Positions 16,201 to 59,360 are shown, counted from the first letter of the whole stretch. The stretch: 62,066 nucleotides of DNA, filler included, from Hausera hauseri (GCA_046269625.1; 12 parts of 12 records of this genome joined end to end with filler, not necessarily neighbours in it); one strand, 5' to 3'. Program-made: numbers and translations. Notes: generated by a model not told the origin, from the letters alone.

Positions 16201-16662
16201 TGATAGTTTCATCTATCTGATCCATACGGAAGATCTGTTTGTGGACTTTGCTAAGTTGGCACAGCATATGGATGCCTCAGACTATCCGAAGGATCATCCC
16301 AACTATTCAATTACCAACAAATAGGTCCTTGGGGAATTCAAAGACGAGGTGAATTGGCCAATCATCTTGAGATTTGTGGCACTGCGTAGCAAAATGTATG
16401 CTATTGATGTACGTGGCCAAGTAAAGAAGCGGGATAAAGGGGTTCAAAGTCGACCTTAGCCAAGATCAGCTTCGATGACTATGTGAGAGTTCTGCACGAG
16501 CAGACTCACATCATATCAGAGATGCGAAGGATCCAGTTTAGGGCTCATACCATTGAGACAGTTACACTACTGAAGAAAAGCCTAGATTGGATGGATAACA
16601 AAAGGCAGATCCTGGGTGATGGAATAAGCACACTATCTTACGGGCATGCTAAATTAATGTAA
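13246..16662 (+). pseudogene. Polinton/adintovirus-type protein-primed DNA polymerase B, copy A, decayed
   Basis: Motifs SGWTL, IYCDFEA, VRDHCH.G.YRG..C..CNL, FHNLRGYDSHF, DANN.YGWAM, YIDTDSF and DNKR...TLSYGH. Many stops, frameshifts and internal deletions. Confidence 0.92.
13405..13508 (+). repeat. 42-bp tandem repeat (about 2.5 units) in the N-terminal region of PolB copy A
   Basis: Units encode SIVPVMPSTSTQMG / GIVPVIPTLSAQTG / GIVPVMP. Confidence 0.7.
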
Positions 16663-16836
16663 ATATCTTTTTTATGACGTGTTGAATTTTTTGTATTAAT
16701 AAATCTTATAAAAATATCGTGTTGTCTTTTTGATCAAGTAATGCAGGATATAGAATAAGGCGAAGTAAAATTAAGTAACTACTGTGTAGGATAAGGCCAA
16801 CTAATTTCATAACACATTTATTTCATAACAATATAA

Positions 16837-19107
16837 CTATGGCAATGGGACGCTCATTGCCCATCCATACAAGTTGTTGGCATCCAGGTATAATATATGT
16901 GAGGATTCCTTGGATGAGTCGTATTCGGTCATATACTTGTTATTGGCCTCGCTAAACCGGTGAATGGCCTGGCATATTCCGCCTCTTATGCCTCTCTCAA
17001 TCATAAAGATCATGTCGTAATCCTTAATGATCTGCAGCCTAATACCAGTATATCTCAGCATTGCTGCCCAGCGCATCCCTGGATCCGTAAAGAAATGAGC
17101 CGGATCCAATACATGACTCTTCATTGTAACATCCCTGAAGCTCTCAAAGACATCTGTCAGCAACAGCATGTCCGTCTTGAGGTATATGTCGCCGTATTCC
17201 CCTATTGTTCGGCACTGAAATGCCTGCCAGACATTCTGGGCATGCTGGTAGTCAGCATCACTGATATCGCAATCAGAGAGGATATTGTAAAAATCCTTCT
17301 TGGCCGACAATAAGGTCTCATCCAGTGTTTCCCATGAAGTTATGTAGTCATAAGGAAAGACGCCTTTCCTCTTGACGCGGTCAAATGCAGTGGGGAAGAA
17401 CCGCTTCGTCTCCTTGAGTTCTTCTGCAAGGAGGTTCTTCACTAAACCATCCAGTGAAGACGACATGAAACCACAGCTGTCTATGAATCGAAGCCTGATT
17501 TTCCCAACATGTTTCGTAAATGTGATATACTTCTCACTATTAGGTATCACCGCAATGTTTCCTTCAATGTTGCCTAATTCTCGGACTATGAAATGGGAAT
17601 CATAGCAACTGAGATTATGGAACACTACAGGCACATATGTACATGTTTTGCAGCAAAGATTGCAGTTATTGCACGCTGCTCCTCGATATGCATCTGTAAA
17701 ATGGCAATGATCCTTGACTTTATGATTTCCCTTGGTGAAGGACTTGTCGCACTAGTAACATGTTGTTGCCTTGCGCTATTCTTCTGCTTGATTCCACGAC
17801 ATGCTGATGGTACCCTTATGCTGCTGAAGCATGTTTTCAAGCTTATTATCCATATCTTCAAGTCGTTTCATGAACTGTGCTGCTGTACCTGGACCTCTGA
17901 ATAGAAATGGTTCACTGTCCAGTCCTTTGGCATACATGCAATACGATGAGAGTTCATAATATTGATATGTCGTTGTGCTGCTATGTTGAGGACTGGTAGT
18001 GCAGCTGTGACCTGGCCGGATAATAGCTTCAAAGTCGCAATAAATAACTATTGGGACGTTGATCTTTTTCTCGAACTCCTTGAATTCAATATTGTCTTCC
18101 TTGAGAAATTCTGACCTTACACAGTAATTGTTGCTGCAGTACATCTTGTGCTCTGCAAGCTTGTCCACTGCTGAATCACCACTGAAATGAGACAGACATC
18201 GCTTACATATTTCTATGTGAACATGGTGATTCGTACTTTTGGATCTGACTAGACGCTCAAAGTTCTTTATCCAAATATAATGTTTCTTTTCTCCATCATC
18301 TAGTAGGAGCAGATCCCTATGATCTTCCAATTCATTATCATATATCCTCAAAGGCTAGAATTTGTCCTCCTCATCCAATCCAAAGATGTTGGTTGATATG
18401 TTGTTGATTCGACTAAACTTTTTAATTTCATCTAAGGATGGAGGGAATGCCATACATTAGAAGTCATAGTTGTGCTGCACATCCTTATATTGCTAAACTC
18501 GTGAATCAGTATGTTGATCAGGTACGAGTTTTGATTGAATGGCACACATGAAACACATGTTGTCATTATTATGGACAATGACACATGCTTTTTTATTAGC
18601 GATCCAATCAGGAAGTTGAATATATGAACTACCCTGCATGGGGGCAAATCTGTGCCCATATACAAGCAATTTCTTGATGGTTGTCAGAGTCCATCCGCTC
18701 TTCTTACGCTGGCTCTCATCGGCTTCACGGATCAGCTTTGAATGCTCTTCATGCAGCCATTCTACTATATTGGTGGCTTTAAAAATGGGTCTATTTCTTG
18801 CCTTGAAGGCCCTTTTGGACACTTCGCCATTACCATTGACGTATGTGGCCTCAAGTTTCATATTAGCCTTAAGGGCTTTGAGCTCTGCTATGTTATCCTT
18901 GAGAATTCACTTTATTTCTTTCTCTGTGTACTTCAGGAACTCCTTGATGGTTGTTTGACCAGTTGCATCAATGATATATTTGCGGCATTTCCTTTTTAAT
19001 GCTGCAGCATCAACTGGCTTCTGTCTTTGACTCTTTGATGGAGCCGCTACGCCTGATGCGCCTGATGGGTCTGATGCGCGTTTTAGTCCTGCATCTGGCT
19101 GTGGTAC
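16837..19107 (-). pseudogene. Protein-primed DNA polymerase B, copy B, decayed and truncated after motif A
   Basis: Motifs KKSGWTL, IYCDFEA, FHNLSCYDSHF, RKGVFPYDY, GIRGG and YLDANNLYGWAMSVPLP, followed by an abrupt end. Confidence 0.92.
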
Positions 19108-19862
19108 NNNNNNNNNNNNNNNNNNNNNNNNNNNNNNNNNNNNNNNNNNNNTTAATTAATTAANNNNNNNNNNNNNNNNNNNNNNNNNNNNNNNNNNNNN
19201 NNNNNNNATGGTTGGTTTATTATTTCCTTTACGTGCTACCTGTGGCATTATAATTACAGAATATATGCCCCTGAATCAACAACAGATATTACAAATAATA
19301 AATCGGACATAATTAAATTAAATTTTAGCTTAATAATGTATATTTGGATTTTTCATTTACGAACTGTTTTATTAACTAAAATTTCGACAAATATTTCAGA
19401 AACTTAACTTGAAAGAATCTTTTACTATATAGTTCTGCAGCGAAAATATAATTAATGATATAAAAAGAATTCTTGAATAATAATTAGTGATTGAAAAAAT
19501 TAATTGAAAATTGTTTAAATGTGGAGACTTCACCCCTACTAGGAAGCAATTTGTAACCAACAGCTTGCGTCTCTCATCAGCATAATTAAACCCTTCTTGT
19601 TTTAGTTTAATATATACTTAGATATATTCTCCGACACAGATTTTTTATCAATTTTTCTAACGAACTTGTATTTACGTTTGCCAGACATTCCGCATTTATA
19701 AGCCTGCTAAAATAGTTAAAATTAATAAAGTCTTACAATTGGTGCACATATGATCTTCCTAATTTAACATGTATAAAATCGTGAAGAATAACATTTATTA
19801 TAATACATTAGCATCCATTCATTATTTAACGAAATCAAAACTTTAACAAGTTCAGTCCAAAT

Positions 19863-20300
19863 CTAAGAAGACAATATTAAAACAGCACACAAATATTTTT
19901 TACCATCCGACATGTGAACTTTCGGTTCAGAAAACGACTCGTTCGTATCCATCGGACTTGACCGAGCCCCAGCGCTAAACTTTCCTTGCATTTTTTGAAT
20001 AATTTTCGCAACTTTCGGATTACTGGCATGTTGCATTAATAACATCGGATTCGACATCGCTTCAGCTAAAATTTTCATCACTTCAGGATCCTATTAAAAA
20101 CAATAAATAATCTTAAATAACAAACATCAACCTTAAGATCTTCGACTAATTCGGGATCATTAAGTAAGTCACCAATGCCCCCCATTGGATCATCATGACT
20201 ATGATGGCTCTTAAAATTACCAAAATCTCCCGACTTTGGATTCTTTTCTTTAGCTTTTGCATTCACTTCCTGTGCTTTCCGAACTCTCTCGCGTCTTGCA
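19863..20300 (-). pseudogene. ST13: C-terminal fragment of Hsc70-interacting protein (Hip/ST13) with STI1 domain; intron at 20091-20131
   Basis: Spliced translation RRERVRKAQE...MGGIGDLLNDPELVEDLK|DPEVMKILAEAMSNPMLLMQHASNPKVAKIIQKMQGKF. The intron is a 41-nt GT-AG. Confidence 0.8.
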
Positions 20301-20406
20301 TTCAATTCCTTTTCTTTCATCTGTTTCCATTCCTCCTGTTCTTGATGGAATCTCTGTCGTTTTCGCTGGAATTCCGCCTGCGATTCTTCGAATTTCCGCT
20401 GTACTT

Positions 20407-22362
20407 GATGATCGATATTTCGTTGGATCGATGGGCACCATTTTCTTTTTCGATTTGGATTTACCTGTTTGTTGTTTGGTATTTCGATTGGAGACTGGCG
20501 TGGAGTTGTTTTGTTTTTTGACGGTTTGAACCTGCCAACGTTCATCTGCATTCGGACTCGACAGTTCCTTTCGTTTTTCGACGAAGTCCTGAGCGAACCG
20601 TCGAGTATATTCGGAGTCATCGAGCAGTTCTTGTAGAAGATCCAAAACATCCGAATCGGGTACATCATTGAGTAATTCGACAATAGCAACGATATCTCGT
20701 TCACCAGATGAAAATCGACTTAATTTGCCAGTGCACCACGAATTTAATGAACACGAATCACTACTCGATGATGTTCGATGTTTTCGTTCATTTGATTTGG
20801 TTGTTGCTGTTATTGTCGTTGTCGATAAGGATTTGTGATTGTTATCATCGACTCGACTGTCAATTGGAGCAGGGTCGGTCCCATATGGCATGTCCCATAT
20901 CGATTTGCCCATGGGAATTGCTGGCTTGTTTATGATCGATGACGATCCTTTTAATAACAAATCTTTGAATGAATTGATTTTTGTCTGTGATTCTGATTCG
21001 AGTAACATGGCTGCCGCTTCTTGAATTTCTCTCTCGCGTTTTTGTAATTCCTCTTCTTCCGCTTGAATTTCCAATAAGGATTTTGCCGGTGTCGATGTTG
21101 ACCACTGCTGAATAATTGGTCGACTGGAATTCGCCATATTCCAATGGACTGATGGCGATTCCGGTTTTGATTGGTCCGTTTTTTGGATAACAACGGCCGT
21201 TGCCGATCTGTTGGTCACCTGTTCGGTATTGATTGGAATTGGCGTTTTGTTGGTGGAATCGATGGAATTTCTAAATTGGACTCGGTGATAATTTTTATGT
21301 TCATGCAAATATGCCGTATGTAACTTGGTTTGTTTGGTTTTGTTTTTCTTTACTTTCTTTTGGCTTTTGGATTCTTTGAATGACTGCCATTCGTTGGTGT
21401 TTCCATCTGGGATTATTGATTCGCTCGTCTGGTTTGCTGGAGGCGGTTCTGTTGACTTTTCCTCTTTGATTTCTTTTGCCGGTGCCAGTGCTGCCGGTGT
21501 CGGTGCTGCCTGTGCTGGTGACAGTGCTGGCGGTGTCGATACTGCCGGTGCCAGTGCTGGCGGTGTCGGTACTGCCGGTGCCAGTGCTGCCGGTAGCGGT
21601 GGTGGAGAGGGGTTCGGTCTAACAGCCGCCGGCATCGTCGTTGTCTCCTTATTCTCAATTTCCCGCTCATTAACCTGACGAGTCAGCTTATTCTGACACA
21701 TCGTATTCAACTCCTGTTCTTTCATCTGTTTCCATTCCTCCTGTTCCTGATGGAATCTCTGTCGTTCTCGCTGGAATTCCGCCTGCGATTCTTCGAATTT
21801 CCGCTGTACTTCCATGAATACTCGACGTTCGAATTCTGCCTGCCGTTCGGCAATGAATTTCTCATTAATCAGCGATGCCTGATCCGATGGCAAAATGGAT
21901 GCCTTAGACAACACCTGGAGAGAAAAACAAAACGTTATTTATTCCCCGAATCGAATACCGAATAACAAAAATGACCTCAACGAGAAAATTTTTATCCACA
22001 CCAACGACGAGTTGAGAAACATCAACGTTGATTTCTGTATTTTCATAAATCGGTGGAATTTTCGGCCCTTCTGTAAATGGAATTCGACCGTAAAGAGCAC
22101 GGAATTCGGCAAGGATAAGAAATCGTTCGTCACATTTTCGTCGAATTCGAGTTGCCGAATTGAAATAGCCTGTTGCTAACCAGTTGGCCATATTGTGACT
22201 GGGGAATGGACCCTGTTCCTTTTCTGATAGATCGATATAATACCAGAGATTGAATTCCGATTCATCGATAATTGGCTGTACCGGTGGATTATCGAATATT
22301 GTGTCATCTTCAATTGGTTGAATCTGCAACAATCGTAAATTATCGACTACATATTCACTCAC
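20407..22362 (-). CDS. GIGYF: GIGYF-family GYF-domain protein (exons 22362-21976 and 21914 to about 20407), extreme C-terminus replaced
   Basis: GYF domain WYYID...QGPF...M..W...GYF, KSLLEIQAEE motif, C-terminal WC...FAQDFVEKRK and KKKMVPIDP. There is a 61-nt phase-0 intron at 21915-21975. Confidence 0.85.
21478..21600 (-). repeat. About 30-bp tandem repeat encoding PPALAPAVxT units
   Basis: Recurrent gccggtgccagtgctg(g/c)cggtgtcg units. Confidence 0.8.
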
Positions 22363-24489
22363 AAATCTCTACAAACAGCGGCAAAATTTAACATTTTCGC
22401 AACTTGTTCACTATTCACCCCCAGCCCCACCCCATCATAATTCATTCATAAAATGTCTTAAATTTAAGCTCTGACAATTTACTGTAAATTAAATGTCAAA
22501 GTTATAACTGCCCCGACCACCTGAAATCACTTCAATGTTTGTGGCCCCTGGACGGAGAATTTTGGTAATTGAATTCTACAATGTATGACTTGAATTTTTT
22601 TCATACTTGGTATTCCATATAGTTCAGATTCATTTTTCATTTAAATGCCATAAATATTGATAAATAAAAACAGCTCAATTATGAACTATATAGAATATTA
22701 AGCTAAATGGCCTAAAGGTCATTTTAAGGAAACCTATGCTCAACTCAATTCATTCCTTATTACATTACACTTCTATCATTAAGAAGTAAACAAAAAAAGT
22801 AAATTTTGAAAACATACAGGCTCCAATTCGTGAGGCAAATTTAATTCATCTAAAATGATCTCCGGCTGCGCCAATATCTCAGATTTCATTTCTGTATCCC
22901 AATCGTCCTGCCAAAGATCCTCAGTTTGACCTTGTTGGTCCTCAAAAGAAGACGTCGAATATAGCTACTTACATAATGAAATTATCATAAATATTCGGTA
23001 CTTTTTTGGGATTCTGATTAACTTCTCCCTTTTTCCCCCAATTCAATCTATCCGGTCTCATGGCCGAGCCATGTTGCTGTACAACATCATCAGCGGTAAA
23101 ACTAATAACAACTAAATACTCGATTCCGGTCGCCTTTAAAGGCTCCATCTTTACTCCACTTTTTCCAATGGTTCTCGTTCGTATACAAATTTTGACTGTA
23201 TGGACGTGCTGCGTTCTGGCCACGATTCAATTTCATTTCCACTTTCTGCCATGGAATATCTTGCGTATATGAGAAATCATCCGGATTTACGGTGAACCTT
23301 TCAGAATTGTTCAAATTTTCATTGGAATTATCACCACTTGCGTTGTTGGGTTTATTTGGACGGGTGTTTCTGAACTTACTACAAAGAAATTCAACGGGTT
23401 TAATTTCATGAGTTCTTTACGATTCACTCNNNNNNNNNNNNNNNNNNNNNNNNNNNNNNNNNNNNNNNNNNNNTTAATTAATTAANNNNNNNNNNNNNNN
23501 NNNNNNNNNNNNNNNNNNNNNNNNNNNNNAACAAACATAGTGCACAGTACAATCAACATGGACACACATACATTCATATATACATTATATAATTTTATTA
23601 TATATACAATTTATGTACATTTATGCACCCCCTATAACTCTTCCGTTGGGGTTTGACCGAATTCCCCAACCAGTCAATCTGGTTCCAACACCACAGCTGG
23701 CGAAAGGAAGACCGTAGTGATTCCGGGATACCGCATCCCCAAGGCACTCCGCCCAACGCACGCCCAAGCGGAAAACAATACCGACAGGCGTACTGCCTCG
23801 AAGGAGCAAACCCGATCAGAAGATCGAAAACAGAGCCCAGAGGGACACCATCTCCAGTGGAAAACGACGCCGCATCCGGGAGTGTCAAGCACCGTGCCGT
23901 TCTTATTCTGATTATCAGACGGTGCAAGAGTTGCTGCAGCGGAGCCGTTTCGTGCGGCACCTCAGCAGAATGCCCGAGAACAATCCGTACTGCCTACCTA
24001 CAGGACATCTTCGTAGGTTCTACGCCGATGGAGACAGCCGACGGTTGTTCGACTTCTCTGCCTTCTTGCCAGTCTTTATAAGACTTATGGCGGCAACAGA
24101 TCGGCTATTCGAGTCTATGGCTCCATCAGAGAGCCAGTTGATTCCTGACCGCCGAACCGCTGAGAAGCGGACGTCTAGGACAGTGAGCTCTAGCCCAGAA
24201 GAAGTTCCCATACCGCTCCGGCGACGCCGGTTGGAGCCGACAAGACTTGAACCATCATCAACTAATTTCAGTTTGGACGACATTCCGATTTGTCCGCGCC
24301 GAAATCCGAGGATTTACCCGGCCCTTTCCTCAACCGAGAATTCGTACGCTTAGGCGGACGATTTGCGAGAACTGAATAAATATTACTCTCATTGTTTTTT
24401 CGTCTTATAAGTGTTTGTTTCAGTTGTTTTATTCGACTGTGTTTGAATGTTTATCCTTTTTATATTTAAAAGTTCCATCCACAAAGAAG

Positions 24490-33852: not shown

Positions 33853-33973
33853 NNNNNNNNNNNNNNNNNNNNNNNNNNNNNNNNNNNNNNNNNNNNTTAA
33901 TTAATTAANNNNNNNNNNNNNNNNNNNNNNNNNNNNNNNNNNNNNNNNNNNNGTTGACCAACCATGTTATACG

Positions 33974-35940
33974 TTGCTAAATGTTAAATTTTCAAATTTT
34001 CATCAGTTACTTGGGCATATTGATATTAAAATATTGTTTCTTTTAATCAGTATTAAATTAGTTTGTACAAATGGAAATATTTTATCAGTCGTTTTGGATG
34101 CGAAATGGGAAAACACCCCGTTAATTGCCGAAGCCAGTGAATTTTTCATGAATGAATCACCAGAACTCTTTTGGAAATTCGTCAGTGAATTGAACAGTGT
34201 TCGTGACAAGTTAAGCATTGATAATAATGAATTGATAAATCATGAAATTATTACGAAAATTGCTAAAAAGCTTTTAAACTCAGGGCAATTGTCGATTTTG
34301 CAATTGTCATTGGCAATGAAATTGTATTCGTCAGCAGTAGAAATGAATCATCAGTTAGGTACTGATTTGAATTGTTCGGATTCTTTGATAGCGGCTAAAG
34401 TAGCCGATAGGGTTTTTTACGATTTAAACAGTTTAATTGAATTTATTTCTATCGGGCGAGATGCTTCTTTTCCCAGTCTTGGTTTGTATAGAACAGATAA
34501 GATATATCCAATTGTTGATTCAATATCTGATATGGATGTGTCCATTATGAAAGTCGTAATATATGGTGATCTCAGAGATAAAAGTTACTATGAATGGCAT
34601 AATGCAATATTTAAATTTGCCGAATCTCGAAAAATTTATTTTATTTTCCGACATCGAATTAAGGTTAGATACGGCAAAACAAGACTTAGCGGTTATGGAG
34701 TTGAATTAGCAATCAAAAGTACTGAATATAAAGCTGTAGATGATAACAAAGTTACCGGTGCTGGTAACGATGAGTCCACTAAGAAATCACAAAATAATAA
34801 ACAGAATTTCTCGCAGTATGACGAAGTTCAGGGTTTTGTATTTTCAAAATTGAAACAGTTACATTCAAATGCATCCGATGATTTGGATTCCTTTAAACAG
34901 CATCTGCTGAAGTCCGATTCGGAAATTAGGCCGCTAAAAGCCTGGCAAATTCAAGAGTTAAGTTTAAAGGCAGGTCAGTTTGTTATGAACTCTTTAGAAA
35001 CGAATGAGGCACTTGAAACACTTCGTGACGTTAGCCAGAATTATCCCGTTCGAACACATTATCTGTCGGAAGTTCCTGTTAGTCAGGAATTTAAAAATGA
35101 ACTTATAGTTAATCAGGCGGTTCTCGAACAAACGTTTGGACTTCAACCCGGACAGTCTCTAGTTACTTTTAATGGTTATGTGCTTTCACAGGATCTCGAT
35201 ATTTATGAAATATTGGATTTGGCACGTAGGGAAATGGGAGTAATGCAGCGGCTGCACAGTTTTGGTTTGCAAGGTGATCAAATTTCATCGATTATGAATA
35301 TTCAACATTCTGAAAGTGATTCAAATACTGGTAATCAATTTCTGTTGGACGATAGAAATGCTCCAGCTGTGTATGTGAATAACCTTGAGAAAGATAGTCG
35401 CTATTATTCATGGCCTAAATCAGTTCGTGATTTACTTACACCTACATATCCTGGAGTTATGAGAAGAATAGCTAAAAACTTTTTCAATGCCATTTTAGTT
35501 CTCGATCCATCACTTATTGAGAGCAGAGAATATGTTAAATTTGTTGAGGCTTTTGTCATACACAATGCACCGATTAGAATGGGTTTTTTGTGGGCAGTAG
35601 ATCCCAGTGAAAAGTTGGAAAACGCTCCTGGCAGAGCTTTGGTCAGAGCCTTCAATTTCGTTTCTTCAGAACGGGAAGATCCCTTAGCTGCTCTTAGTTT
35701 CATTACAGATTTCTACGCGATGAATGATGATGGTGAGCCAATTACCGTGCCTTTGGTTAAAGAGTATCTGAAGGAAAAGTATCCAGATGTGGACTTAGAC
35801 GTTACATTTGGGGAGATATCGGATTATGATGATAATATTAAGGCGTCGTGGAAATATTTGCAAGAGAGCGGACTGGCGAACTTGCCAAAACCATTAGTTT
35901 TGCTAAATGGCTTGCTCATCGATTCAAAATCTCTAAATGA
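33974..35940 (+). CDS. UGGT: UDP-glucose:glycoprotein glucosyltransferase N-terminal (TRXL) region; first part of a fused ORF
   Basis: Signal-like hydrophobic stretch, LDAKW..TP...EASEF, LSGYGVELAIKSTEYKAVDD and NNLEKDSRY..WP....LL.P.YPG. No GT24 catalytic domain. Confidence 0.92.
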
Positions 35941-37875
35941 AATGGGATTTTTTCTTCAGTGCAATGCTTCGTCTGATTCCACTGTTTGGCATTGTCATGC
36001 TAAAGCAGAGCTGAGACTTGTTGTACAGCGCAAAGGATTAAATTCTCAAGATATAGTGAAAAATATTGAGCACAACTTCTTCTATCGAGAAAACGACTGG
36101 GGCTATTCGAACTATATTATATGGACAGAACTTGTTAATCCTGAAAATGGATTCGTTGGTCAAGATGACAGTATATTACTTCGTGTGAAAGTCCAAGCCG
36201 ATGCACCTCACGGAGTTGATTGGGATTCTAAGAAACATACCGGTTTTGTTGGTTTGAAAAATCAGGGAGCGACATGTTATATGAATTCATTACTCCAGGC
36301 CTTGTTTTTCACTAACAAATTACGAAAGGCTGTTTATCTTTTACCGACTGAAACTGATGATGAGCAACGATCGGTTTCCTTGGCATTACAACGAGTGTTT
36401 TATGAATTGCAATTTGGTATAAAAGCTGTTGGTACGAAACGTTTAACGAAAAGTTTTGGCTGGGAAACACTGGATACATTTATGCAACACGATGCTCAAG
36501 AATTGTGTCGAGTGCTTTTAGATAATTTGGAAAGTAAAATGAAAGGAACTCAGGTTGAAGATACCATTCCGAATTTATTTTGTGGAAAAATGATGTCATT
36601 TATTCGGTGTAAGAAGGTTCCCATTGAATCTAAACGAGAGGAAGCATTTTATGATATTCAGTTGAAAGTCAAAGGAAATTCTGATGTATATGAAGCATTT
36701 AAAGAATACATAACGGTAGAATCTCTTGATGGTGATAACAAATATGATGCAGGAGAATGTGGACTGCAAGATGCTGAGAAAGGAATCGTTTTTCTAAAAT
36801 TTCCACCAGTTCTATATCTTCAGTTGATGAGATTTCAGTATGATTATGAGGCAGATGCTAATATTAAAATAAACGATTCATTCAAATTTCCGTATAAACT
36901 ATATCTGAGTAATTATCTACATGACCGATCAGACAGTCGTACTCAATATATTCTTCATACAGTACTTGTTCATTCGGGTGATAATCATGGCGGTCATTAT
37001 GTTGCGTATTTAAATCCTGGTGGTGATAATAAATGGTATAAATTTGACGATGACGTTGTAAGTAGGTGTTCAAGAAGAGAAGCAATTTTATCAAACTATG
37101 GAGGAAACGACGGTGATTCCAGTATAAAACAGTGTACAAATGCTTATATGTTGGTTTACATAAGTGAAGCAGATCTAGATGATATTCTGTGTCCAATAGA
37201 AGATGATGATATACCGCCAAACCTACATCAAAGGTTTGCAAACGAAAAACATGTTGAAGATCAAAAACGTCAGGAAAAGGCTAAAGCCCACCTTTATTCA
37301 TCTGTCATACTTCTTTTGGATGAAGATTTTTATGGATGGCAAGGATACGAATTATTTGATATCGAAAAAAGTTCTTATTGGAGACGGTTCAAATTTCCTA
37401 GGAAATCGAATGCGACAGATTTGACTCGTATGATATCAGAAACACTTCATGAATCCTGTGATCGAATTCGCTTATGGTATGTAATTCAAAGGAATAATCA
37501 GATTCAACTATCTCTTTTGGATGGTAAAGATAGCTCTATTCTTTCATCAGACAACCCTGTAATGATCTGGATACAGACTGTTGCAGCTGATAATCCTACC
37601 CAAACTTTAACCCCTATAGATTCAAAACAGATTTTAATATTTTGTAAATATTTCGATCCTGCCAATAATTCTATGCATTTCGTTGGATGGATACATTATA
37701 AAATTGCTTCTCAAGTTAGAGAAATATTTCCTGTTTTAAGAAAGTTTGCACACTTATCCGAAAATGTTCAGTTGATATTATGGGAAGAACGAGGACGAAA
37801 TCTAACTGTGATAAATTCTAGTGAAAGCTTTATATCACCATTTAATGGAATGATAATTATATTTGAACCAAATGT
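35941..37875 (+). CDS. USP7: USP7/HAUSP (half MATH domain, complete catalytic domain, UBL1-2); second part of the fused ORF
   Basis: GFFLQCN, ENDWG, ADAPHGV.WDSKKHTG.VGLKNQGATCYMNS, QHDAQE, HSGDNHGGHY, KFDDD and NAYMLVY. Confidence 0.95.
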
Positions 37876-38061
37876 CAAACCATCCTTATATAAGATCTCT
37901 AGGAGTGATTTTGGCAAACTTAAAAAAATTAAAAATCGAGATCAGACCATACTTTTTGCAAGAAAGTTCGATAGATTCATCGATACTGATATCCTTGATT
38001 TGTACACCTCTAATCACACTGATCGTTGCAACATCAAACCTTACAGACATATACTCAATTT
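37876..38061 (+). CDS. Possible GT14 (core-2/I-branching or xylosyltransferase) fragment; third part of the fused ORF
   Basis: DF.KL...LFARKFD...D.DIL does not follow USP7 and resembles the end of the GT14 domain. Confidence 0.45.
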
Positions 38062-38161: not shown

Positions 38162-38327
38162 AATCCAGGTATTCATTGTCCGATGCCATAATGTTGAATT
38201 GAATGTCAATGTTATCATCCGTTGAAACCGAATTAACGAGGTAGATTTCTTTAAATGCTTTATTGTCAATAACAACGTGTTGCGCGCTTTGGTCAAATAT
38301 ACACAATTCAGATTTTGAAGATGCCAT
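38162..38327 (-). CDS. Major capsid protein (double jelly-roll), N-terminus only
   Basis: KSEL.IFD...Q......EIY.V.S......IQFNI......YLD matches the Polinton MCP N-terminal pattern. It lies after the penton and core genes. Confidence 0.8.
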
Positions 38328-38362
38328 TTGTTTGTCTGTCTGTCTGTCTATCAGTCAATCAA

Positions 38363-38730
38363 TCAATCGAAAATCGTACGACGACGACGTTTGTTTATAG
38401 CTGATGAACTCGATGATACTCTACGGTGTTTTCTCATCAAGCCACTGCCAGCGAATTGTTTTTTGACTAATTCAACGACTGCCGGTGCAGCGCTTTTTAT
38501 TTCGGACAAGGCGTGTTCCGTCAGTGAGGTAAAATCGATTTCTTTTTTATATAGTGCGTCCAGTGCTGTTTTTGCTGCCACGGCACTGATACATTTCAAC
38601 ACCGGAAATGCTAAACGTGCCAATGTATGCAAGCATCCAGAGCCATACTGTTTACTGACGAAATACAGCAGTTCCCCGCCATGCTGGGGTTACTTTAAAT
38701 AGAAATGATTTCAGAATCAATTATGTTGTT
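38363..38730 (-). CDS. Small basic virion core protein (pVII-like), 5' end disrupted
   Basis: QHGG, QYGSG and FAGSG motifs, and an Arg-rich tail KRRRRTIFD. Confidence 0.65.
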
Positions 38731-38734
38731 ATTG

Positions 38735-39295
38735 TTATTGGATTGGACGGAAATGAAGAGTTAGACTGGTTGTGGTACCATACGGAAATTCAATTAGGTA
38801 GCTCGTGTCACATCGGATATTCACTTTAACATTGTTTATAGAGGTAGATGCCACAGGTAGGTACATTGGATTATCGAGTTTGACAGTGACATTGTCACCG
38901 GCAGTATACATGCTGCTTTCCGGATAAATTGCACGGAGTAGATGTACACGTACTCTACCGACCAAAATCGCTTCGGTGATATTGACGTAAATGTACATTT
39001 GACATAGTCCCGTTTTCAGTTTGGATTTAAGTGTTACAATATGTTCTGCCGCCGCCGTCTTCGATGCCTCAAACAGAAGTTTTCCAAAACTCAATACCAT
39101 GGCTAAAGCTTTGTCCAATGAAATGCCAACAGTATCCTTAGCCAGTTCAAATTGAATGTACCCATTTGCATCTGACTCGAAAATTTTAAATATCGTCTTG
39201 TACTTTTGATTTGAAGAAGAAAAGTGTTGACAAAGCTGTGATACAGATTCGCAATAGACATTGTCTCCAATCGATACGTAAAACGTTAACACCAT
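38735..39295 (-). CDS. Minor capsid (penton) protein
   Basis: MYIY.NI....VG.....LLR.I...NPMYLPV....IN...V.I......I.F.......LHFRP. Confidence 0.8.
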   Translation of the reverse strand: MVLTFYVSIGDNVYCESVSQLCQHFSSSNQKYKTIFKIFESDANGYIQFELAKDTVGISLDKALAMVLSFGKLLFEASKTAAAEHIVTLKSKLKTGLCQMYIYVNITEAILVGRVRVHLLRAIYPESSMYTAGDNVTVKLDNPMYLPVASTSINNVKVNIRCDTSYLIEFPYGTTTSLTLHFRPIQ

Positions 39296-39407
39296 TTCTG
39301 TTGTAAAGGTTGGTTCAAGTGCACGGTAAACTGTTTAGCAGTATTGTCGTCATTGTCGTCATGTTGTGATAATGATATGTTACCATCAAGTACCAAATAA
39401 ATGCTCA

Positions 39408-40457
39408 TCATTCAATCTGTGATGCAAAAATCCAGCTCGGTGTAGTGTATCCGTAACACTTGATGAAATATTGTTTATTCGAATCTTTGCCACGTGAAAG
39501 TAGAATTTCCTAAATACGATATACATCGGGTGTCTCGGACAGTACCTGCAGTTTTTCTTCGTAGAATTTACCGCGTATTTCGTCACCGTTTTTATCATCT
39601 AAAACGTACATGACAAGTGTTTGTCTTGTGTTGATTGCCGAAATGCGGAAAACCTCATCTCTCCAGTTCTGATTGAAATTCTTAATGAATGGCGTGGTAC
39701 TTATTTTCGAAATACATACGTAAGCACCGGTTTTATATTTTGGGCGTTTAATTCCCTGTCATCCTCGTCGGTTTTGATAAAGCCACATGTTCAAATCATC
39801 GATTACGTCAACTGGCCATAATCCTTGATACCACGATGTGTCTAATGATTGTATGCATGAATAATATCCGGTAGTACATCTATCCAGCGTTTATTGCCCT
39901 GCTTCGTAAAGAATTTGTTTAGGCAACCGCACAATGCTCGATTAAATCGTTCAACGAGTGCAGCCTTGTATTGGGAAAACAGCGAGTAGTGGTTTACGCC
40001 GAACCGTTTCAAGACCGATGCAACGTGGGCGTCGTAGAATTCGTTACCCAAATCCGTTTGTAAATGCTTCGGTTGCTGCCGTTGTTGTTGTTGTATCAAT
40101 GTCTGGACAGCGTCGGCAATCTCTTTACCGGATTTAGATTTGACAGCAATTGCACGTGCAAAACGACTAAACACATCAACGCATGTTAGCACGTACCGAT
40201 ACCCATCGTTGATGCTGGCATACGGAATCATTTCCATCAGTTCCATTTGCCATACGTTATTTACATCGGAAGCGCGGTATGCACGAGTTGGAAACCACCT
40301 TCTTATCGGTTTATTTAGGCTAACTTTTATGCAAACTTTTTCCCGACCTAACGTTGGGTCTGTTTCCGAATATGTTTGGCAGTCTTTCCCAGTTTTTCGA
40401 CTCCAGTATACCCGAGGGATCACGCGGATCGAGCTACACGTCGCCCATCGTTGTCAT
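39408..40457 (-). pseudogene. Polinton rve integrase with C-terminal chromodomain
   Basis: VWQ..L, YRYVLTCVDVFSRFA, LQTD.G.EF, KAALVERFNR and YN; downstream GKFYEE.LQ and YFIK..GY...SWI. Confidence 0.92.
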
Positions 40458-40592
40458 CGATGATTTTGTTTTTGTTTACATTGCAGCAATTAGAACGAAA
40501 CGTAAATGAAAGATTCCGTAAACTGGGACAGAAAGATGAAAACCATGTACCCATATCGCCGAATCATCATATACTTACTGTCATTGCTTATA

Positions 40593-40903
40593 CTATGCTG
40601 TAGAACCAATGCATCTACCAAATAATGACGTGACAATCGGTAGAACTGCACCAAGGAATCCACCGCCTAGCTGATACATGATATCCCATTTCAGTCGTTT
40701 ACTACGGGCGTTGGCAAGGTCACTGAGTCATTTTCGATACTTTAGTAAATTCCTCTTTCCACTACCAATGTCAACGTGACCCACAACGATATTGTATAAA
40801 ATTTCCATCAAATCGTCTACTACAAACTGTAGGAATGATCGCAGTATGTTTCGTATGTCTCGTAGGTGCCTTGAGCAAAGTAATAAAGTACGGCTGACTA
40901 CAT
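40593..40903 (-). pseudogene. Small Polinton structural-type protein with a Q.GGFLG amphipathic C-terminus
   Basis: LMEILYNIV.G.V...KYRK*L..LA.......YQLGGGFLGAVLPIVTSLFG. Confidence 0.6.
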
Positions 40904-40959
40904 TTGAATCGAATGCTTTCTTTTTTCTGAACGTATTGATGCTGATGAGACGTAGTTGT

Positions 40960-41170
40960 TTATAACCGTTGCCACTGAGGCGGTAATTTGCGTCTAGTTG
41001 TTGCTCGACGAAGCACAGAATTGATTAATCGCTTGACTGTAGAGGTGGTTCGTTTTGATACACATTTCTTGCAGCCGAACACCCGCTTGGTAGTAGATTG
41101 TTTACGTTTAACAATTGTTTTTCGGAAATTTTTCATTTTATCACTATTGTGTCGTCGATTTTTGAATTTG
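40960..41170 (-). CDS. Small Arg/Lys-rich hypothetical protein
   Basis: Highly basic open frame ending in WQRL, located between the ATPase tail and the integrase arm. Confidence 0.45.
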
Positions 41171-41175
41171 TTTAT

Positions 41176-41325
41176 AGACACAAACCTTTCTGATTGAAAA
41201 TGTCCGTTTATACACACATGTTATCGGGACACTGTTGTGTAAAGTCGATGAACAAGTATCCGTGTGGCTCCGTCGTGGCATCATGATATGCATCTATCAA
41301 GTAGGCTCGGCTGTGAGAAATTGCA
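41176..41325 (-). pseudogene. C-terminal remnant of the packaging ATPase
   Basis: Manual translation YLIDAYHDATTEPHGYLFIDFTQQCPD..., the usual Polinton ATPase tail. Confidence 0.75.
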
Positions 41326-41371
41326 CAACACACTATAAATACCATCCCATGCTCATTCAGGTATTACTGCC

Positions 41372-42057
41372 ATGGAAGACAACGACAAAACGATTCTACT
41401 CAATGATGCCAATGATTAAAGTTCAGATTGGTCGTGGTTGTTCTGCTACAAAAAGGACAATTCTAATGTCAAATTTTTTGAAGCGAAAATAGAACCTGTC
41501 CAACAATTAGAAAAACCCTGTGATTGTCTGGATATTGATTATCTGGAAACGAAAAAGGATCTTGCTCAGAAATCATCATCATCAGCAGCAAAACCGACAT
41601 AAAAAGGCAAAGTGCAATGATTGGAATACATAAAGGAAAATCAAACCCGTGGCACCAAACACAGACATTTTTACCTAAACGAATTTTTCGCAAGTGTTAA
41701 ATGCATTTTCTGCAAACGCGCGTACTAATTTCATTGAATGATCCCGTGTCGCTATGCGTACCCAACTACAGCTATCTTGTAAAATGGCTTTTGGGTGAGA
41801 ATTTGGATAAACTTTCTGATGCTCTACACCAATTAAACGTGGATGTAAAGTTGAACGAAACGAACGTACTACAGCAATCCGTCGTTTTACTGGCGCAGAA
41901 AACGAAATTGTTTGATTTTATCGGTGGCGAAATGTCTCCTGTACCCGATGATGATGGTTTAATGTTGACTGAATATTGAATTGCAAAGATACAAGGAAAA
42001 AGCCGGTATCAAAGGGTGATTTGGCGTGTAGGTGAAGCACATTTTAATTGTCAATAA
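41372..42057 (+). pseudogene. Decayed homologs of the two hypothetical genes at 7315-7698 and 6976-7296
   Basis: MEDNDKTILL...DWSWLF and NDPVSLC.PNYSY...KLSDALHQLNVDVKLNET. Confidence 0.8.
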
Positions 42058-42155
42058 ATTTTGTTGTTTTGTTTTACCTTTCTTCTTCTTTCATTAACCA
42101 AATTAACGAGTATAAATATACGTGTAATTTTAATATAGGCATAAGAATATTGATA

Positions 42156-42601
42156 ATGAATGATGTAAAGATTATCTTAACAGGCGAAAATGCCTTTGTA
42201 CCGATACGTGTTACAGCAAACATTGCAGGCTACGATGTGTTTTATAATGTCAGTACGACAATTACGGATAGTACAATCAAATGCGTAACGACTGGGATTC
42301 GATTGGAGATTCCGGCCAGTTACTACGGCCAACTTTCATCGAAAAGCAGACTGGCAAAGCTGGGACTGACGGTTGTGGGCGGCGTCATTGATTCAGATTT
42401 TTGTGGTGAAACCAATCCGGGGAACCGTATGCTTTTTCGAAAGGCAATGCAATGTTGCAAATCGTTTTTCTTCGCTGTGAAGAGGCGGAATTTAGTGTAA
42501 TGTCGCTGGAACAATGGGGATTGTTTTGTGTCAATGAATCGACACGAAATGAACGCAAAGAATTTAACTTTGGCGATATGGACAAAACCACCTATGCTTA
42601 G
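42156..42601 (+). pseudogene. dut: dUTPase, second copy, with a frameshifting deletion
   Basis: MNDVKIILT...AGYD...YYGQLSSKS.L...GGVIDSDF, colinear with 6411-6889. Confidence 0.9.
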
Positions 42602-42739
42602 TGATTGTGATAATAATAATAATAGTTAGTTGTTTTGCTNNNNNNNNNNNNNNNNNNNNNNNNNNNNNNNNNNNNNNNNNNNNTTAATTAATTAANNNNN
42701 NNNNNNNNNNNNNNNNNNNNNNNNNNNNNNNNNNNNNNN

Positions 42740-50946: not shown

Positions 50947-53701
50947 ACTGGAAATCTAAAGTTTAAAAATGTAATAGAAGTACTCTGCAAATTTATCAAA
51001 CAATGCTTATTCGAAAATAGATGAATCACCTTTAGTAATAATTTTAGTCTTATGGGTTGTGAGAAAAGGATCTTGGTGTTGCTTTAGGTTTTCTTTCATT
51101 TCGATTTATGATTTCACCATCGAAAACCTTTTGTGCGGATACGTTTATGTATGCATTCCTTACTCGTCTACAATTCGGTATTGATCGATTATTTGCTCAT
51201 GTTGTATAAAATTGTGGTGTCAGTTTACGATTCTCCTACAATGGATTTCTACTGTGAACTTTTTTTGAAGGTTCCTGGTTTTTAATAAATTCATGTTCAA
51301 GTTGCCACATTGCACACGAACTTATAACTTTCCTGTGTCCATCAATGCAAACAATAAAATGCAACCATTGAGAATCTTTTCTAAATAAGCTTTTTGTAAC
51401 GTAACTTACAAGAGCCGTTGAACATTTCACGTTGAAAATAAATTGAAGTTAAACATCGAATGTATCAAATGATAGAATTTGTGCAGAATTTCCGAAATTT
51501 TCTCATCATCCGTAGATAAGACTAAATGTTAATCTTATGTTAATTTTGACTGGAATGACACGTTGCTACATCTTCTTCCACATTCTACGACATCTTTATA
51601 TGCTTAACAAGCCCATTTTACCAATCATCAATTTCGGTTTAACAAAAACAATAATAATTACTTACTGTGTTAATATTTTGAGTGCTTGCCATTTCTCAAA
51701 ATTTTTCACAATAAAATCTCAAAATGTTTAGCATATTTATAATTATGTCATGTATTTTATTTTCCACTCTGTTCGTTTTGAACATAATTTGCGTGAGAAA
51801 ATCGTCGACTCTTACTGTTTGAATGAAAATATTTTGGATAACTATTCGCTTCGATGAATTTTAGTTGTTTAATGAAGTCTGATAAAAAATTAATGAAGTT
51901 TGTGTAAATTAATGCTTAATTAAGAGAACATATTAGGTAATTAAAATTAAACAACGCCATTTATAAATATATTTCGATGAATTAACCATCATCGTCAGTA
52001 AAATAATGTTATAGAAACAAATTTTCCATTGCTTTTCTCTAGTAAATTTCAATGTGAAACTGTAGCAGAACGAATCCGTGAAATACTTGTAAATTAATTG
52101 TAAATTAATCATGAAACAGAAAAACGGACTTCAAAAAATCTGTCTGTTTATTAAATGTTGAAGTAAATTCTTAATACAAATAAATTATGCCGCCATACTT
52201 GGATCTGGCGGCATAATTACTGGAAAATCTTTTGATATCGTAGATGCTTATAGTGAGTTATAGAATTTTTTAGAAACACATGCATCTGGTTTTAATACAC
52301 ATTCACTGATAAATTATGGTCCAATCGTTTACTGAATGAGTCATCATGCCGGTCTACCTTTGTGACGCCCGAGGAACATTTGCTGAGAACAAAATAGAGT
52401 AATAAAATATTTAATTCTTCCATTTTTAAGAATATCAAACATGTTGGACTTTTCTGCTGATTGCATGTTTATTAGACCTTGTAAAATACATGTTCTCCAT
52501 GTGCTTTGGGAAATTCTCTTTATCATGTATTTGTGCAATATTCACAAATCGGGCATATATCAGTTAAGCGTCACACGGAGTCAATTCACGAAATCGGTAA
52601 ATTTGGCCCACAATTCTATTTTTTTAAAAACAGAATTGAAAAAGCGAAAGATCAAAGGACCAAGATAATAACAAAAACTCCGAATAAAGCAAAATATAAC
52701 AAGATGGCTGATATACAATGATCGCTGAACTCAATATTTTATGATCGACATTTTATTTCAGAAATAAATGTATTTTTGGATCAGAATTTATTGAATGTAG
52801 AAATCTTGAGAACATTTCTAAAGGAGTCGATTATTATATCTGGGTGCAATATAGTGTTTAAACGTTTTACGAATCGGTTTCTCGTAGTATTTTTGCACCC
52901 GAAAAGAGAGATTCTTATGTTGTGTGATTTATGTATTGAATATCAGAATGAGCCATTCTGCAGCAAAACATGATCAGAAAAGAGTATTGTGTCTTAACCA
53001 AGGAAAGTTAAACTATGTTTCAGAAACTTAGCACAACCGAAAATCTATGAATATAAACAAATTATTTTTAAATTGGAAATATTACAGTTGTTTCCATCTT
53101 AGTATTCAAATGCTATTTGAACATGTATGATAATATTTACCATCAAATCTAGTGTGTTTTTGGTGCATTCTCTTTGAGCCTCTGAATTCTCTACATATCA
53201 CTATATATAATCCATATTACATATGATAGTTCTAACTTGATCTATGTAGTATTTAATTACCTGGCCTTATCCAATATCCTACATTACTTAATCAAAAATA
53301 CAACACGACTTTTGAACAAGATTTATTGATAGAACAATACAACACGTAATACAAACAATACAGCAAAGCTATTTACATATTCACAATGCAGCATACCCGT
53401 GNNNNNNNNNNNNNNNNNNNNNNNNNNNNNNNNNNNNNNNNNNNNTTAATTAATTAANNNNNNNNNNNNNNNNNNNNNNNNNNNNNNNNNNNNNNNNNNN
53501 NATATTTTGAATTACAGCAATATTTACAAACACTGTTAGGGCAGTGAGAAGTTGATCTTGGCTTTGCAAGGACGACATTTGAAAGTACAAGGCATCGTTG
53601 TCTGCGTAATGTATATCAAGAATAAAAATGTGTTCAGGGTGGTCGTAATCAATTGTGATGGTGTTTTGATGTGGGCGTACTTTTAAGGTGATTTTCATAG
53701 T

Positions 53702-55753
53702 TTATTTTAATATAAAGGTTGTGGTTTCCGTGTGCGTCAGGGCCTTGGGTTGGTAGTCATCTACATTGGTGAGGAGGGCATAAGTTTGAGCCAGTTTTTC
53801 TGGTGTCAGGGCTGTTGAAATAAGACGAGTAGATAAGGTACGAAGGCAAGGTATGCAACAGCAGCCGCAAACAACTAATATAGCAAGACAAACTCCTACA
53901 GCAATGATTAAAGACATGACAATACCCTTCCATTGTCCAAAAACTCTATTAAACCAATTTGATATTGGGTCGGACACACCTGATGCATCTTGCATTTCTG
54001 TAGATAGGTCTTTGATGCCCTGTAAGGCTTTGGACACTTTACCATCGGGTGCTGTGTTATTGGGTATGAATGTACAACATTCGTCACCAATCATGTGACA
54101 GACGCCTCCTTGTTCAGCTAAAAGCATGTCTAATGCAATCCTATTTTGTACGGCCATTTTGGACGTGGGGCGAAGTTGGTCAGCAAGGCCTTCTATGGCG
54201 TCGCGAGTTAAATTGGTCAGGCGTAGGACATTGTAATGGACAAAATTTATTCTAGCTACGTTTTTGTTTACTGTTACGTAGGGAATTAGGGATTCAAAAC
54301 CTGCTAATATGGGGTTAGCTAATTTATATTCATCAGGCACACCTCTAGGGACGCCAATAGCATCTATGTAAGTTGGTGAAGCTTCTGGGTCAAAATCTGT
54401 AGATCTTCGTTTTCTAGTGAGTGTGGTTGCGACAGAAGTATGTCCTAATAAGGTGAGGGGTGCAGCGAGACGAACTAAAGCACAGAGTTCTACGGTTTGG
54501 GTAGGGATTTTTACAGATAGTCTTTGGCCGCCACAATAGTAATATAAACCTGCTCTGGCCCAGGAACCGATAGTCTGGTTGTATTCATTCGTGGTAGTTA
54601 CCTGGATTGTGGTGTTACACCAGTCGTGGTTTATTTCTCCATAACTTTGAATTGGACTAGTTGTAGTAAAATTAAAACAGTGATATCCGCCTATGATTTT
54701 GCGGGGTTTAAATGATCCGGGGTGTGTTCTGTTATGAATGGGTGGATAGATGTCAGTTAGGGTTGTACAGTTTGATACAGTGTATTGTCTGGTTAGGTTT
54801 AACATGCAATTGTATCCCCATGTATCATCTGGGAACAGTGGAGCTGGTTGAGTAATTAGTTTGGGTCTAGCTGCGGCGCAGGCAACGCAATTGCTGAGTT
54901 GAGCCTCCCTAGCCGCCTCCACCAACCATGAGAGCCATAAATTGTCGTCTTCATGGCCAGTCGCTCTTTCTATTAACTGTTCAGGTTTAAGCTTAGTGTA
55001 ATCTACCGATACTACTGGAATATGGTCTTCCTAAAGACTTTCAGTCTTAAAAGTTGAGGAGTTAGACACCTTGGATGGTTTAGGCTGAGGAGGGGGAATA
55101 AATCTAATTGTGATAAATCCCTTTGGATCTGTGCCCGTTACGTGAGCTTGGATTAAGAAAACATAGAAATTTGATTTTGTTCGTGAGACAAAATATTTTG
55201 GCGGACCAGATAACTTACTCAGTGATAGAGTGATTGGATTTTTTACTGGGTCGTAATCTCTTTGAAACCTAACCTTGTCCCACCATGCCTTTGTGTCTTT
55301 AGTCAAACCAGAACGTGGGGGTGTCCAAAGTCCTGTGTATGCAGTAGCTGTGGACCAGGAACAGATTGGTTCACGAGTTCCTGGATACTGCAGTCCTGTT
55401 TGATGAGCAAACCTACGCATCCGAGTCGTGTGGTCAGCAAAACCATCTGCGTTCATTGAAATATCAAGACACAAATACAGATCAGCACTTCGATACCATA
55501 GATCATGGCCACCACAATTAATTACATTACACAGATCGAACTGAAATGCAGTGGTTGAGTTGATTTCATAGTCAAGGATCAATTTTGTGTAGGCAGATGC
55601 TGGAATACTCCTTCTGGTGACCTTTGTCTGCGTGCAGGGTCCTTCATTTGGAAACATGCAGAAATATTCACACAGAAAAACAATAAAAGTAACTAAAAGA
55701 GTTATGGCCCCGAATATCAGGGCGCTTTTCCAGGGGTGTAGAAACAGATTCAT
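53702..55753 (-). CDS. env: Envelope glycoprotein interrupted by one in-frame TAG (55033-55031)
   Basis: Signal/anchor, CVAC (CXXC), furin site RKRR, ISD QNRIALDMLLAEQGGVC, CX6CC and a TM helix. The two ORFs share a frame and the gap between them is otherwise open. Confidence 0.92.
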
Positions 55754-56174
55754 TTTACTGCAGTCCTTATCAACCTTTAACTGTGTGTGTGTAATAAAAA
55801 GTTATAAGGAAAACCTGATGTATGAGTTTCTGGTGTAGTTTCAGCTCTGGGATGGCCTTGGTTTCCTCTTCGGCTCCCTCGTTGCCAGAGGTACTCTAAA
55901 CTGTACGTAGTTTAGAGTGACTGTCTGGGCGCGGTGCTCCTACGTTGTCAGACTCACCGAGTGACAGTCTGAGTTGGGTGGAATGTGTGTGTAAAAAGTC
56001 TCTATATCAGTAAGGTATGGCAGGTGTTTGTGTGTTAATGCCTTGGCAATAGTTCAGTTTGTATGTCAGGTCACCTGTCCTGACAAAATGAGGAAAGGGG
56101 TAAAGGGGACGCCGCCTCACCTGAGCTGATGCCAGTGAGTGTGCTGTCCTGGTTCTGTTAGGCTTGGACTGGAC

Positions 56175-59354: not shown

Positions 59355-59360
59355 TGCTAA

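What the first reader, a model, noticed from the sequence alone, without database searches (positions are those of the whole stretch)
33974..38061. Single 4.1-kb open frame fusing UGGT misfold-sensor domains to an intact USP7 catalytic domain and a probable GT14 fragment
Seen: no stop or intron across the whole span. The switch at about 35941 (NGLLIDSKSLNE|MGFFLQCN) enters USP7 mid-MATH, the Cys/His/Asp triad motifs are intact, and a second switch occurs at about 37876. Known: UGGT is ER-lumenal and binds misfolded glycoproteins, while USP7 is a nuclear/cytosolic deubiquitinase, and I know of no such fusion. Inference: if real, a misfold-targeted DUB or a recent chimeric retrogene. The conflicting topology and mid-domain breakpoints also fit an artefact.
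Basis: partly seen in the sequence, partly recalled or inferred. Interest (0 to 1): 0.72.

Follow-up and report, generated by a model that had tools for sequence, protein, structure and literature searches.

The report
Amplified five-gene mRNA patchwork in flatworm
In a probable flatworm, cut-down pieces of about five unrelated housekeeping genes, mainly UGGT and USP7, are joined into one open reading frame; this is likely an mRNA-derived patchwork made and multiplied by a jumping gene's copying enzyme, a known process, and probably not a working new enzyme.

Summary
The open frame is real but is simply one whole 4,109-bp contig, with no start of its own gene and no stop. It holds truncated UGGT and truncated USP7 (catalytic triad intact), plus smaller pieces at both ends. 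Public-run contigs show each parent going on past its joint. At the UGGT/USP7 joint the parents share 7-8 bases, in frame in both. In run X1 the fused path has depth 85.7 against 7.6 for UGGT's own continuation, and a depth-4 contig joins USP7 through an intron-like acceptor that the fused copy lacks. The USP7 exit is bridged in a second study; the UGGT/USP7 joint is seen only in X1, possibly the source run. Best reading: a young, likely amplified multi-parent retrocopy made by template switching, probably LTR-driven (flanks not on the contig). In-frame joints need no selection: about half of 7-8-base matches between this window's genes are in frame. A misfold-targeted deubiquitinase is unlikely, since USP7 lacks its activating end and both joined domains are cut. 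The scan already noted many similar mosaics elsewhere in this genome. Whether all pieces lie on one molecule is not shown.

The parts
33953..38061 (+). Whole contig; one open frame of 1,369 codons running off both ends
33953..33984 (+). Piece A, 11 codons; with its continuation it looks like the N-terminus of coatomer beta (COPB1). Label recalled, not tested
   Evidence: Contigs of X3 and X4 leave the window after 33984 and stay open in this frame for the 30 letters shown (read by hand); no hit
33985..34029 (+). Piece B; with its continuation it looks like a dynein heavy chain AAA2 motif (DYNC2H1-like). Label recalled, not tested; left edge unsure
   Evidence: Contigs of X1 and X2 leave the window after 34029 with the same 30 letters
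34030..35949 (+). UGGT piece: hydrophobic part of the signal peptide without its own Met, TRXL1, TRXL2, most of TRXL3; stops at about residue 625 of about 1,520
35942..35949 (+). 7-8 bases shared by the UGGT and USP7 parents, in frame in both
   Evidence: Loose ends at 35942 and 35949; homologue alignments
35942..37880 (+). USP7 piece: last two thirds of MATH, whole catalytic domain, UBL1-2 region; matches residues 113-764 of a 1,101-aa homologue
36275..37048 (+). Catalytic triad codons C775 (36275), H1015 (36995), D1032 (37046)
36703..36704 (+). Position where a low-depth USP7 contig has an intron-like acceptor and the window copy has no intron
   Evidence: X1 contig of 330 bases, depth 4.08, AT-rich loose end finishing in TTTTTAG at a codon boundary; donor side not seen
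37881..37900 (+). 20 unassigned bases between a merge point and the last piece
   Evidence: X1 contig of depth 235.6 starts at 37881
37901..38061 (+). Likely xylosyltransferase (GT14) piece from the donor-binding region; no enzyme domain of its own
   Evidence: Loose end before 37901 in X1 and X2 reads W-C-G-C-S-P in frame (read by hand); human XT1 has W571, C572, C574, S575 and R598-K599 (PMC5992326 passages); here R-K lie 29-30 residues after the first Cys against 26-27

Best explanation
The contig is a patchwork of cut-down pieces of UGGT, USP7 and probably three more genes in one frame, likely built by a retrotransposon's reverse transcriptase hopping between spliced mRNAs at a few shared bases, likely multiplied afterwards as passenger DNA, and probably not a working enzyme. 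Shown: the pieces, the open frame, separate parent continuations, 7-8 shared bases at the main joint, and the depth steps. Inferred: that spliced mRNA was the template (one intron-like acceptor), that the higher depth means many genomic copies, that a Gypsy-type LTR element did it (no flank on this contig), and that the frame is intact because the copy is young and shared words between coding sequences are often in frame.
For: Parents exist apart: in X1 a contig carries UGGT on past 35949 and its 30 letters read F-E-E-T-V-V where homologues have F-E-E-G-V-V or F-E-E-A-V-L; contigs of X1, X2 and X3 carry other sequence, open in frame, into USP7 at 35942, where homologues have their own upstream part. 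The fused path lies in an X1 contig of depth 85.7 with no differences, against 7.6 for UGGT's own continuation and 4.08 for the intron-bearing USP7 contig. Depth changes at piece boundaries: 70, 85.7, 168.8, 133.1, 235.6, 424, as expected if pieces are reused in several mosaics; another partner joins USP7 near 36769 at depth 133.1. An X2 contig, 37543-37930, crosses the USP7 exit (338 letters left and 50 right of 37881). A decayed copy of the UGGT front exists in X1 (depth 5.88, 33 other letters, 8 gaps). A myosin gene in the window has 45-60-base introns every few hundred bases with similar acceptors. Contig 1 of this window shows a decayed Gypsy RNase H running on the same strand into an intron-free, truncated vigilin. 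Tan et al. describe partial, multi-parent, re-mobilised retrocopies with a median 6-base match at joints (PMC5131818 passages). 48-51% of 7-8-base matches between six coding pieces of the window are in frame.
Against: No LTR, primer site or target-site duplication is on this contig. The main joint is seen in 1 of 6 runs laid (X1), which may be the source; X2's contig stops at 35948, and X2's USP7 contig runs through 35942-36105 from USP7's own 5' part. The X1 contig has only 22 letters beyond the shared bases, short of the tool's 31-letter bridging rule. No contig spans the whole stretch, and X1 has no contig at 36734-36768, so the phasing of UGGT with the USP7 3' half is not shown. The intron evidence is one acceptor, no donor. 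The tool warns that contig depth is not copy number. Contig 5 of this window has an in-frame join whose downstream piece keeps a 41-base intron, so not every join here need come from spliced mRNA. Whether the myosin and Gypsy contigs are the same organism is assumed.
Confidence: 0.66

Rival explanations
1. The joints are real but were made at the DNA level (ectopic repair or gene conversion between gene copies, as at 'tinkering loci'), then multiplied by segmental duplication.
For: Contig 5 has an in-frame join with an intron kept. Weisman reports ectopic recombination as the main source of fragment clusters in Drosophila (bioRxiv 10.64898/2026.08.09.743762, sections 8 and 13). No LTR on this contig.
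Against: All pieces are sense strand and purely coding over 4.1 kb, with no parent intron or flank; USP7 appears to have lost an intron at 36704. Only 4 of the 184 tinkering-locus proto-gene regions in that paper give single chimeric proteins.
Confidence: 0.13
2. The contig is an artefact: either a library chimera at the UGGT/USP7 joint, or an assembler path that strings together real joints from different mosaic copies.
For: Main joint only in X1; no piece spans the stretch; X1 gap at 36734-36768 with a different partner joining near 36769; half of the USP7 depth at 35942 comes from a different 5' partner (97.8 against 85.7).
Against: The fused path is about 11 times deeper than UGGT's own continuation; X2, another study, holds contigs across 34029 (28 letters left), 36696-37227 and the USP7 exit. 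A random chimera would not remove an intron. 7-8 shared bases are too few for a graph misjoin (inference).
Confidence: 0.15
3. It is a functional chimeric gene: a deubiquitinase aimed by UGGT's misfold-sensing domains, amplified by selection.
For: 1,369 open codons, intact triad, only 13 departures from near-invariant USP7 columns in the aligned part, several joints in frame, high depth.
Against: TRXL3 and MATH are cut mid-domain; the USP7 end needed for activation is missing (PMC6335408 passages); signal-peptide remnant and ubiquitin substrate belong to different compartments (established knowledge). The copy is nearly identical to its parents where they overlap (0 of 30 and 1 of 38 letters differ), so intactness says little. 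21 listed variants in other contigs are 13 amino-acid-changing and 8 silent, close to the neutral 69%/27% (many are in contigs under depth 5). None of the 120 best USP7 hits or 120 best UGGT hits carries the other part.
Confidence: 0.06

Closest known systems
LTR-mediated multi-parent retrocopies of animals (Tan et al. 2016, PMC5131818; passages and section 12 read), e.g. CG4799_CG11924_r and the mouse four-gene 'Super' retrocopy
   Same: Partial parents, several genes in one copy, short shared bases at the joint, intron loss, signs of further rounds of copying.
   Different: No LTR flank seen here; about five pieces appear to be in one 4.1-kb open frame; depth suggests pieces reused across many mosaics; host is a probable flatworm.
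Maize Bs1 (as summarised in PMC5131818 section 12)
   Same: Retroelement-borne chimera of three host genes.
   Different: Bs1 has one parent out of frame and is reported as functional; no function or expression is shown here.
Tinkering loci of Drosophila (Weisman, bioRxiv 10.64898/2026.08.09.743762; abstract, sections 8 and 13)
   Same: Gene fragments from unrelated loci gathered together and spread, linked to transposons.
   Different: There mostly DNA-level with parent flanks kept and rarely one fused protein; here seamless coding joints and an apparently lost intron.
USP7/HAUSP and UGGT themselves
   Same: USP7 piece up to 55% identical to animal USP7 and grouped with flatworm USP7; UGGT piece up to 39% identical to animal UGGT.
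   Different: Both are truncated; neither has its full domain set.

Membership tests
LTR-mediated chimeric retrocopy | Parents only partly copied | tested here: met
   UGGT stops at about 625 of 1,520; USP7 covers 113-764 of 1,101
LTR-mediated chimeric retrocopy | Short shared sequence at switch points | tested here: met
   7-8 bases at the UGGT/USP7 joint; the other joints could not be scored because only one parent side is visible
LTR-mediated chimeric retrocopy | Parent introns absent | tested here: inconclusive
   One intron-like acceptor at 36704 in a depth-4.08 contig, donor not seen; favours loss but is a single observation
LTR-mediated chimeric retrocopy | Flanked by LTR retrotransposon sequence | not testable with these tools
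   Frame runs off both contig ends; no genome held; pattern scans found nothing. A Gypsy-vigilin join lies on another contig
LTR-mediated chimeric retrocopy | Further rounds of copying (several copies) | tested here: inconclusive
   Depth 85.7 against 7.6 and 4.08 in one run; contig depth is not a copy number
LTR-mediated chimeric retrocopy | Transcribed from the LTR | not testable with these tools
   No RNA holder listed
L1-type processed retrocopy | Poly(A) tail and target-site duplication | not testable with these tools
   Both ends lie off the contig
USP7 | Catalytic domain with Cys-His-Asp triad | tested here: met
   UCH 1-254 of 254; C775, H1015, D1032
USP7 | Complete MATH/TRAF domain | tested here: not met
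   MATH_2 only from profile position 43 of 136
USP7 | UBL3-5 and activating C-terminal tail | tested here: not met
   Match ends at residue 764 of 1,101; USP7_C2 (PF14533), listed for 118 of the 120 hits, is not found here
UGGT | TRXL1-3 sensor domains | tested here: met
   Thioredoxin_12, _13, _14; the third is cut at 205 of 255
UGGT | TRXL4, beta-sandwich and glucosyltransferase domain | tested here: not met
   None found; listed for homologues
GT14 xylosyltransferase | Active-site flap W-C-x-C-S followed by the R-K donor-binding pair | tested here: inconclusive
   Pattern fits but no search hit; the flap itself lies outside the window copy

The most novel reading that the evidence does not exclude
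This flatworm runs a retroelement-driven gene-shuffling system in which mRNA pieces from many housekeeping genes are repeatedly recombined, and only patchworks that keep one long open frame survive and multiply (for example because RNAs with early stops are destroyed before they are recopied), so that long chimeric proteins such as this UGGT-USP7 fusion are made in numbers.
Probability: 0.12. Interest if true: 0.72.

Novelty: new member of a known kind. Interest (0 to 1): 0.33.

Why it matters
As a single locus it is a real-looking but probably inert product of a known process, and a warning for annotation: it would be called a novel fusion gene. What it adds to the scan's earlier notes on this genome is read-level support: separate parents, a shared-base joint, an apparently lost intron and an apparent excess of the fused form over the parent. 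If long reads show many such open-frame patchworks inside one LTR family, the organism would be a good system for measuring how fast retroelements create multi-gene proteins and whether open frames are favoured.

Tried and rejected
No whole genome is held. Tail identity by search failed: Pfam 0 families, PDB 0, representatives 1 hit that is an unrelated repeat protein, homologue search 0 of 5 candidates, plasmid tblastn only E=3 matches; the Atlas gave no answer. The 5' 37 residues gave no PDB hit. Pattern scans for the contig's 5' end and the main joint found 0 matches in metagenome contigs, and the 5' end 0 in viral contigs. No RNA holder listed. X6 laid nothing and X5 two short pieces on 35700-36900. 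No repeat explains the joints; only short chance-like pairs, and the contig matches no other contig of the window. A fusion in print: 9 papers hold UGGT, USP7 and fusion (titles and abstract starts only), none on such a gene; two searches listed nothing on a flatworm case or on selection for in-frame capture. Rejected: contamination by a vertebrate host (USP7 groups with flatworms); reading the open frame as proof of selection. No structure was predicted: the protein is over the size limit and a model would not separate the rivals. Amplification-chimera papers were seen as a listing only.

Full report
Setting. The window is 12 contigs of 3.9-8.6 kb joined by 100-base linkers of N with a stop-codon core. 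The finding is the whole eighth contig, 33953-38061. Frame +1 is open for all 1,369 codons and runs off both ends. No genome is held. In a quick tree of the USP7 piece with 39 of the 120 hits, chosen by me for taxon spread, it falls in a 12-row group with all 9 named flatworms (SH-aLRT 99); its branch is long, so the place is unsure.

Anatomy. Pfam gives UGGT Thioredoxin_12, _13 and _14 (the last to 205 of 255), MATH_2 from 43 of 136, UCH complete and USP7_ICP0_bdg 1-149 of 241. The UGGT piece starts inside the signal peptide, without its own Met, and ends at about residue 625 of about 1,520. The USP7 piece matches residues 113-764 of a 1,101-residue homologue at 54%. The triad is C775, H1015, D1032. 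Of 283 near-invariant columns among 60 homologues 226 are kept; 44 of the 57 misses lie past the truncation. The whole-protein search gave 590 hits; the best 120 are all plain USP7 covering 35-55% of the query. The UGGT-piece search among longer proteins gave 880 hits; the best 120 list only UGGT families. Neither set matches the other piece. I did not see the hits below rank 120.

Public runs. Six runs from six studies hold part of the contig; X1 holds 0.96 of its words and may be its source, X2 0.70; none is on record as RNA. All are contigs, not raw reads. Loose ends show where each parent goes its own way (translations read by hand from 30 letters). After 35949 an X1 contig of depth 7.6 continues F-E-E-T-V-V, matching UGGT homologues at that column. 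Before 35942, contigs of X1 (depth 97.8), X2 and X3 bring other sequence, open in frame, into M-G-F-F-L-Q, which I take as USP7's own upstream part. So 35942-35949 is common to both parents; one letter in the 38-base overlap differs and its place is not given, hence 7-8 bases. The fused path lies in an X1 contig of depth 85.7 that ends at 35971, 30 letters into the shared USP7 node, which is where a 31-letter graph must break at a merge (inference); it is 22 letters past the shared bases and short of the tool's 31-letter rule. X2's contig stops at 35948, so it neither confirms nor denies the joint.

Other joints. Before 37901, X1 and X2 contigs read W-C-G-C-S-P; human xylosyltransferase 1 has W571, C572, C574, S575 and the donor-binding R598-K599 (PMC5992326, passages), and the window tail has R-K at nearly that distance. 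No search confirmed the tail. An X2 contig, 37543-37930, depth 7.75, crosses the USP7 exit with 338 and 50 letters around 37881 and 30 letters past 37901. At the 5' end X3 and X4 leave after 33984 and X1 and X2 after 34029; these look like the coatomer beta N-terminus and a dynein heavy chain motif, both labels recalled and untested. X2 crosses 34029 with 28 letters on the left. One search left 18 loose ends and 29 pieces unshown.

Processed and apparently amplified. An X1 contig of depth 4.08 joins USP7 at 36704 through AT-rich letters ending TTTTTAG at a codon boundary, like the acceptors of the short introns in the window's myosin gene. The window copy has no intron there. The donor side was not seen. 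X1 depth steps at piece boundaries: 70, 85.7, 168.8, 133.1, 235.6, 424. The tool warns that depth is no copy number, but the two branches at one node differ about 11-fold in favour of the fusion. A second partner of 466 letters joins USP7 near 36769 at depth 133.1, and X1 shows no contig at 36734-36768, while X2 crosses that stretch as in the window. A decayed UGGT front with 33 other letters and 8 gaps exists at depth 5.88.

Is the open frame selected? Among six coding pieces of the window, 47.6% of 2,630 shared 7-base words and 51.2% of 725 shared 8-base words are in frame. Four in-frame joints then have a chance of about 6% if all were made at matches of that length, and this locus was picked because it is open. 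The 21 distinct listed variants in X1, X2, X4 and X5 are 13 amino-acid-changing, 8 silent and 0 stops, against a neutral 69%, 27% and 4%; many are in contigs under depth 5 and some may be parent alleles, so this is weak either way.

Mechanism. Tan et al. describe LTR reverse transcriptase switching onto co-packaged mRNAs at short shared stretches (median 6 bases), giving partial, sometimes multi-parent copies that are copied again (PMC5131818; passages and section 12; supplements not read, and their tables may bear on in-frame counts). The contig fits this in its parts, its main joint, its lost intron and its depth. The LTR flank is not visible. In the same window, contig 1 has a decayed Gypsy RNase H region (55-58% identical to the Gypsy of contig 7) running on the same strand into an intron-free, truncated vigilin. 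Against a pure mRNA route, contig 5 has an in-frame join whose downstream piece keeps a 41-base intron, which keeps DNA-level recombination (Weisman preprint, abstract and sections 8 and 13; supplements closed) as a rival. Earlier scan notes on this genome describe many such mosaics; they changed my first guess of misassembly, and I checked the pattern here only on contigs 1, 5 and 8.

Function. The USP7 catalytic domain alone has low activity and needs UBL4-5 and the tail (PMC6335408, passages); these are missing. MATH lacks its first third and TRXL3 its end. In the ER lumen there would be no ubiquitin substrate, and in the cytosol no glycoprotein clients for UGGT (established knowledge). I put a working misfold-targeted deubiquitinase at about 6%.

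Verdict. A probably real, young, multi-parent retrocopy; a new member of a known kind. Open points are whether all pieces sit on one molecule, an independent witness for the UGGT/USP7 joint, and the flanks.

Noticed in passing
window 1-4518: Decayed Gypsy RNase H region (68-648) runs, in one open frame from 436, into an intron-free, 5'-truncated vigilin that ends at its stop (3882): a second likely capture.
   Followed up: partly
window 19700-22400, minus strand: GYF-domain (GIGYF-like) gene with a second, 96% identical 107-base copy of its coiled-coil joined in frame to an STI1/HOP-DP tail that keeps a 41-base intron.
   Followed up: partly
window 36734-36800: In X1 a contig of depth 133.1 joins USP7 here from 466 other letters; its last 30 letters share an 11-base word with the loose end at 35942. 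Unexplained.
   Followed up: no
window 34120-34487: A diverged, frameshifted copy of the UGGT front exists in X1 at depth 5.88.
   Followed up: partly
window 4619-8776 and 38162-42639: Two related contigs (74% over 1.1 kb) with TBP-like, A32-like ATPase and integrase frames, likely decayed Polinton-type elements (label recalled).
   Followed up: no
window 12920-19107: Large diverged inverted repeat (about 70% over 1.6 kb) of frames that look like DNA polymerase B elements (label recalled).
   Followed up: no
window 53502-62066: Retrovirus-like element with long gag, pol and env frames (RVT_1, rve, MLVIN_C, TLV_coat), higher GC than the worm-like contigs; possibly from a vertebrate host.
   Followed up: no
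window 9285-10460: Glucosylceramide synthase-like gene (Glyco_transf_21) broken by stops with little or no intron between pieces; possibly another dead processed copy.
   Followed up: no
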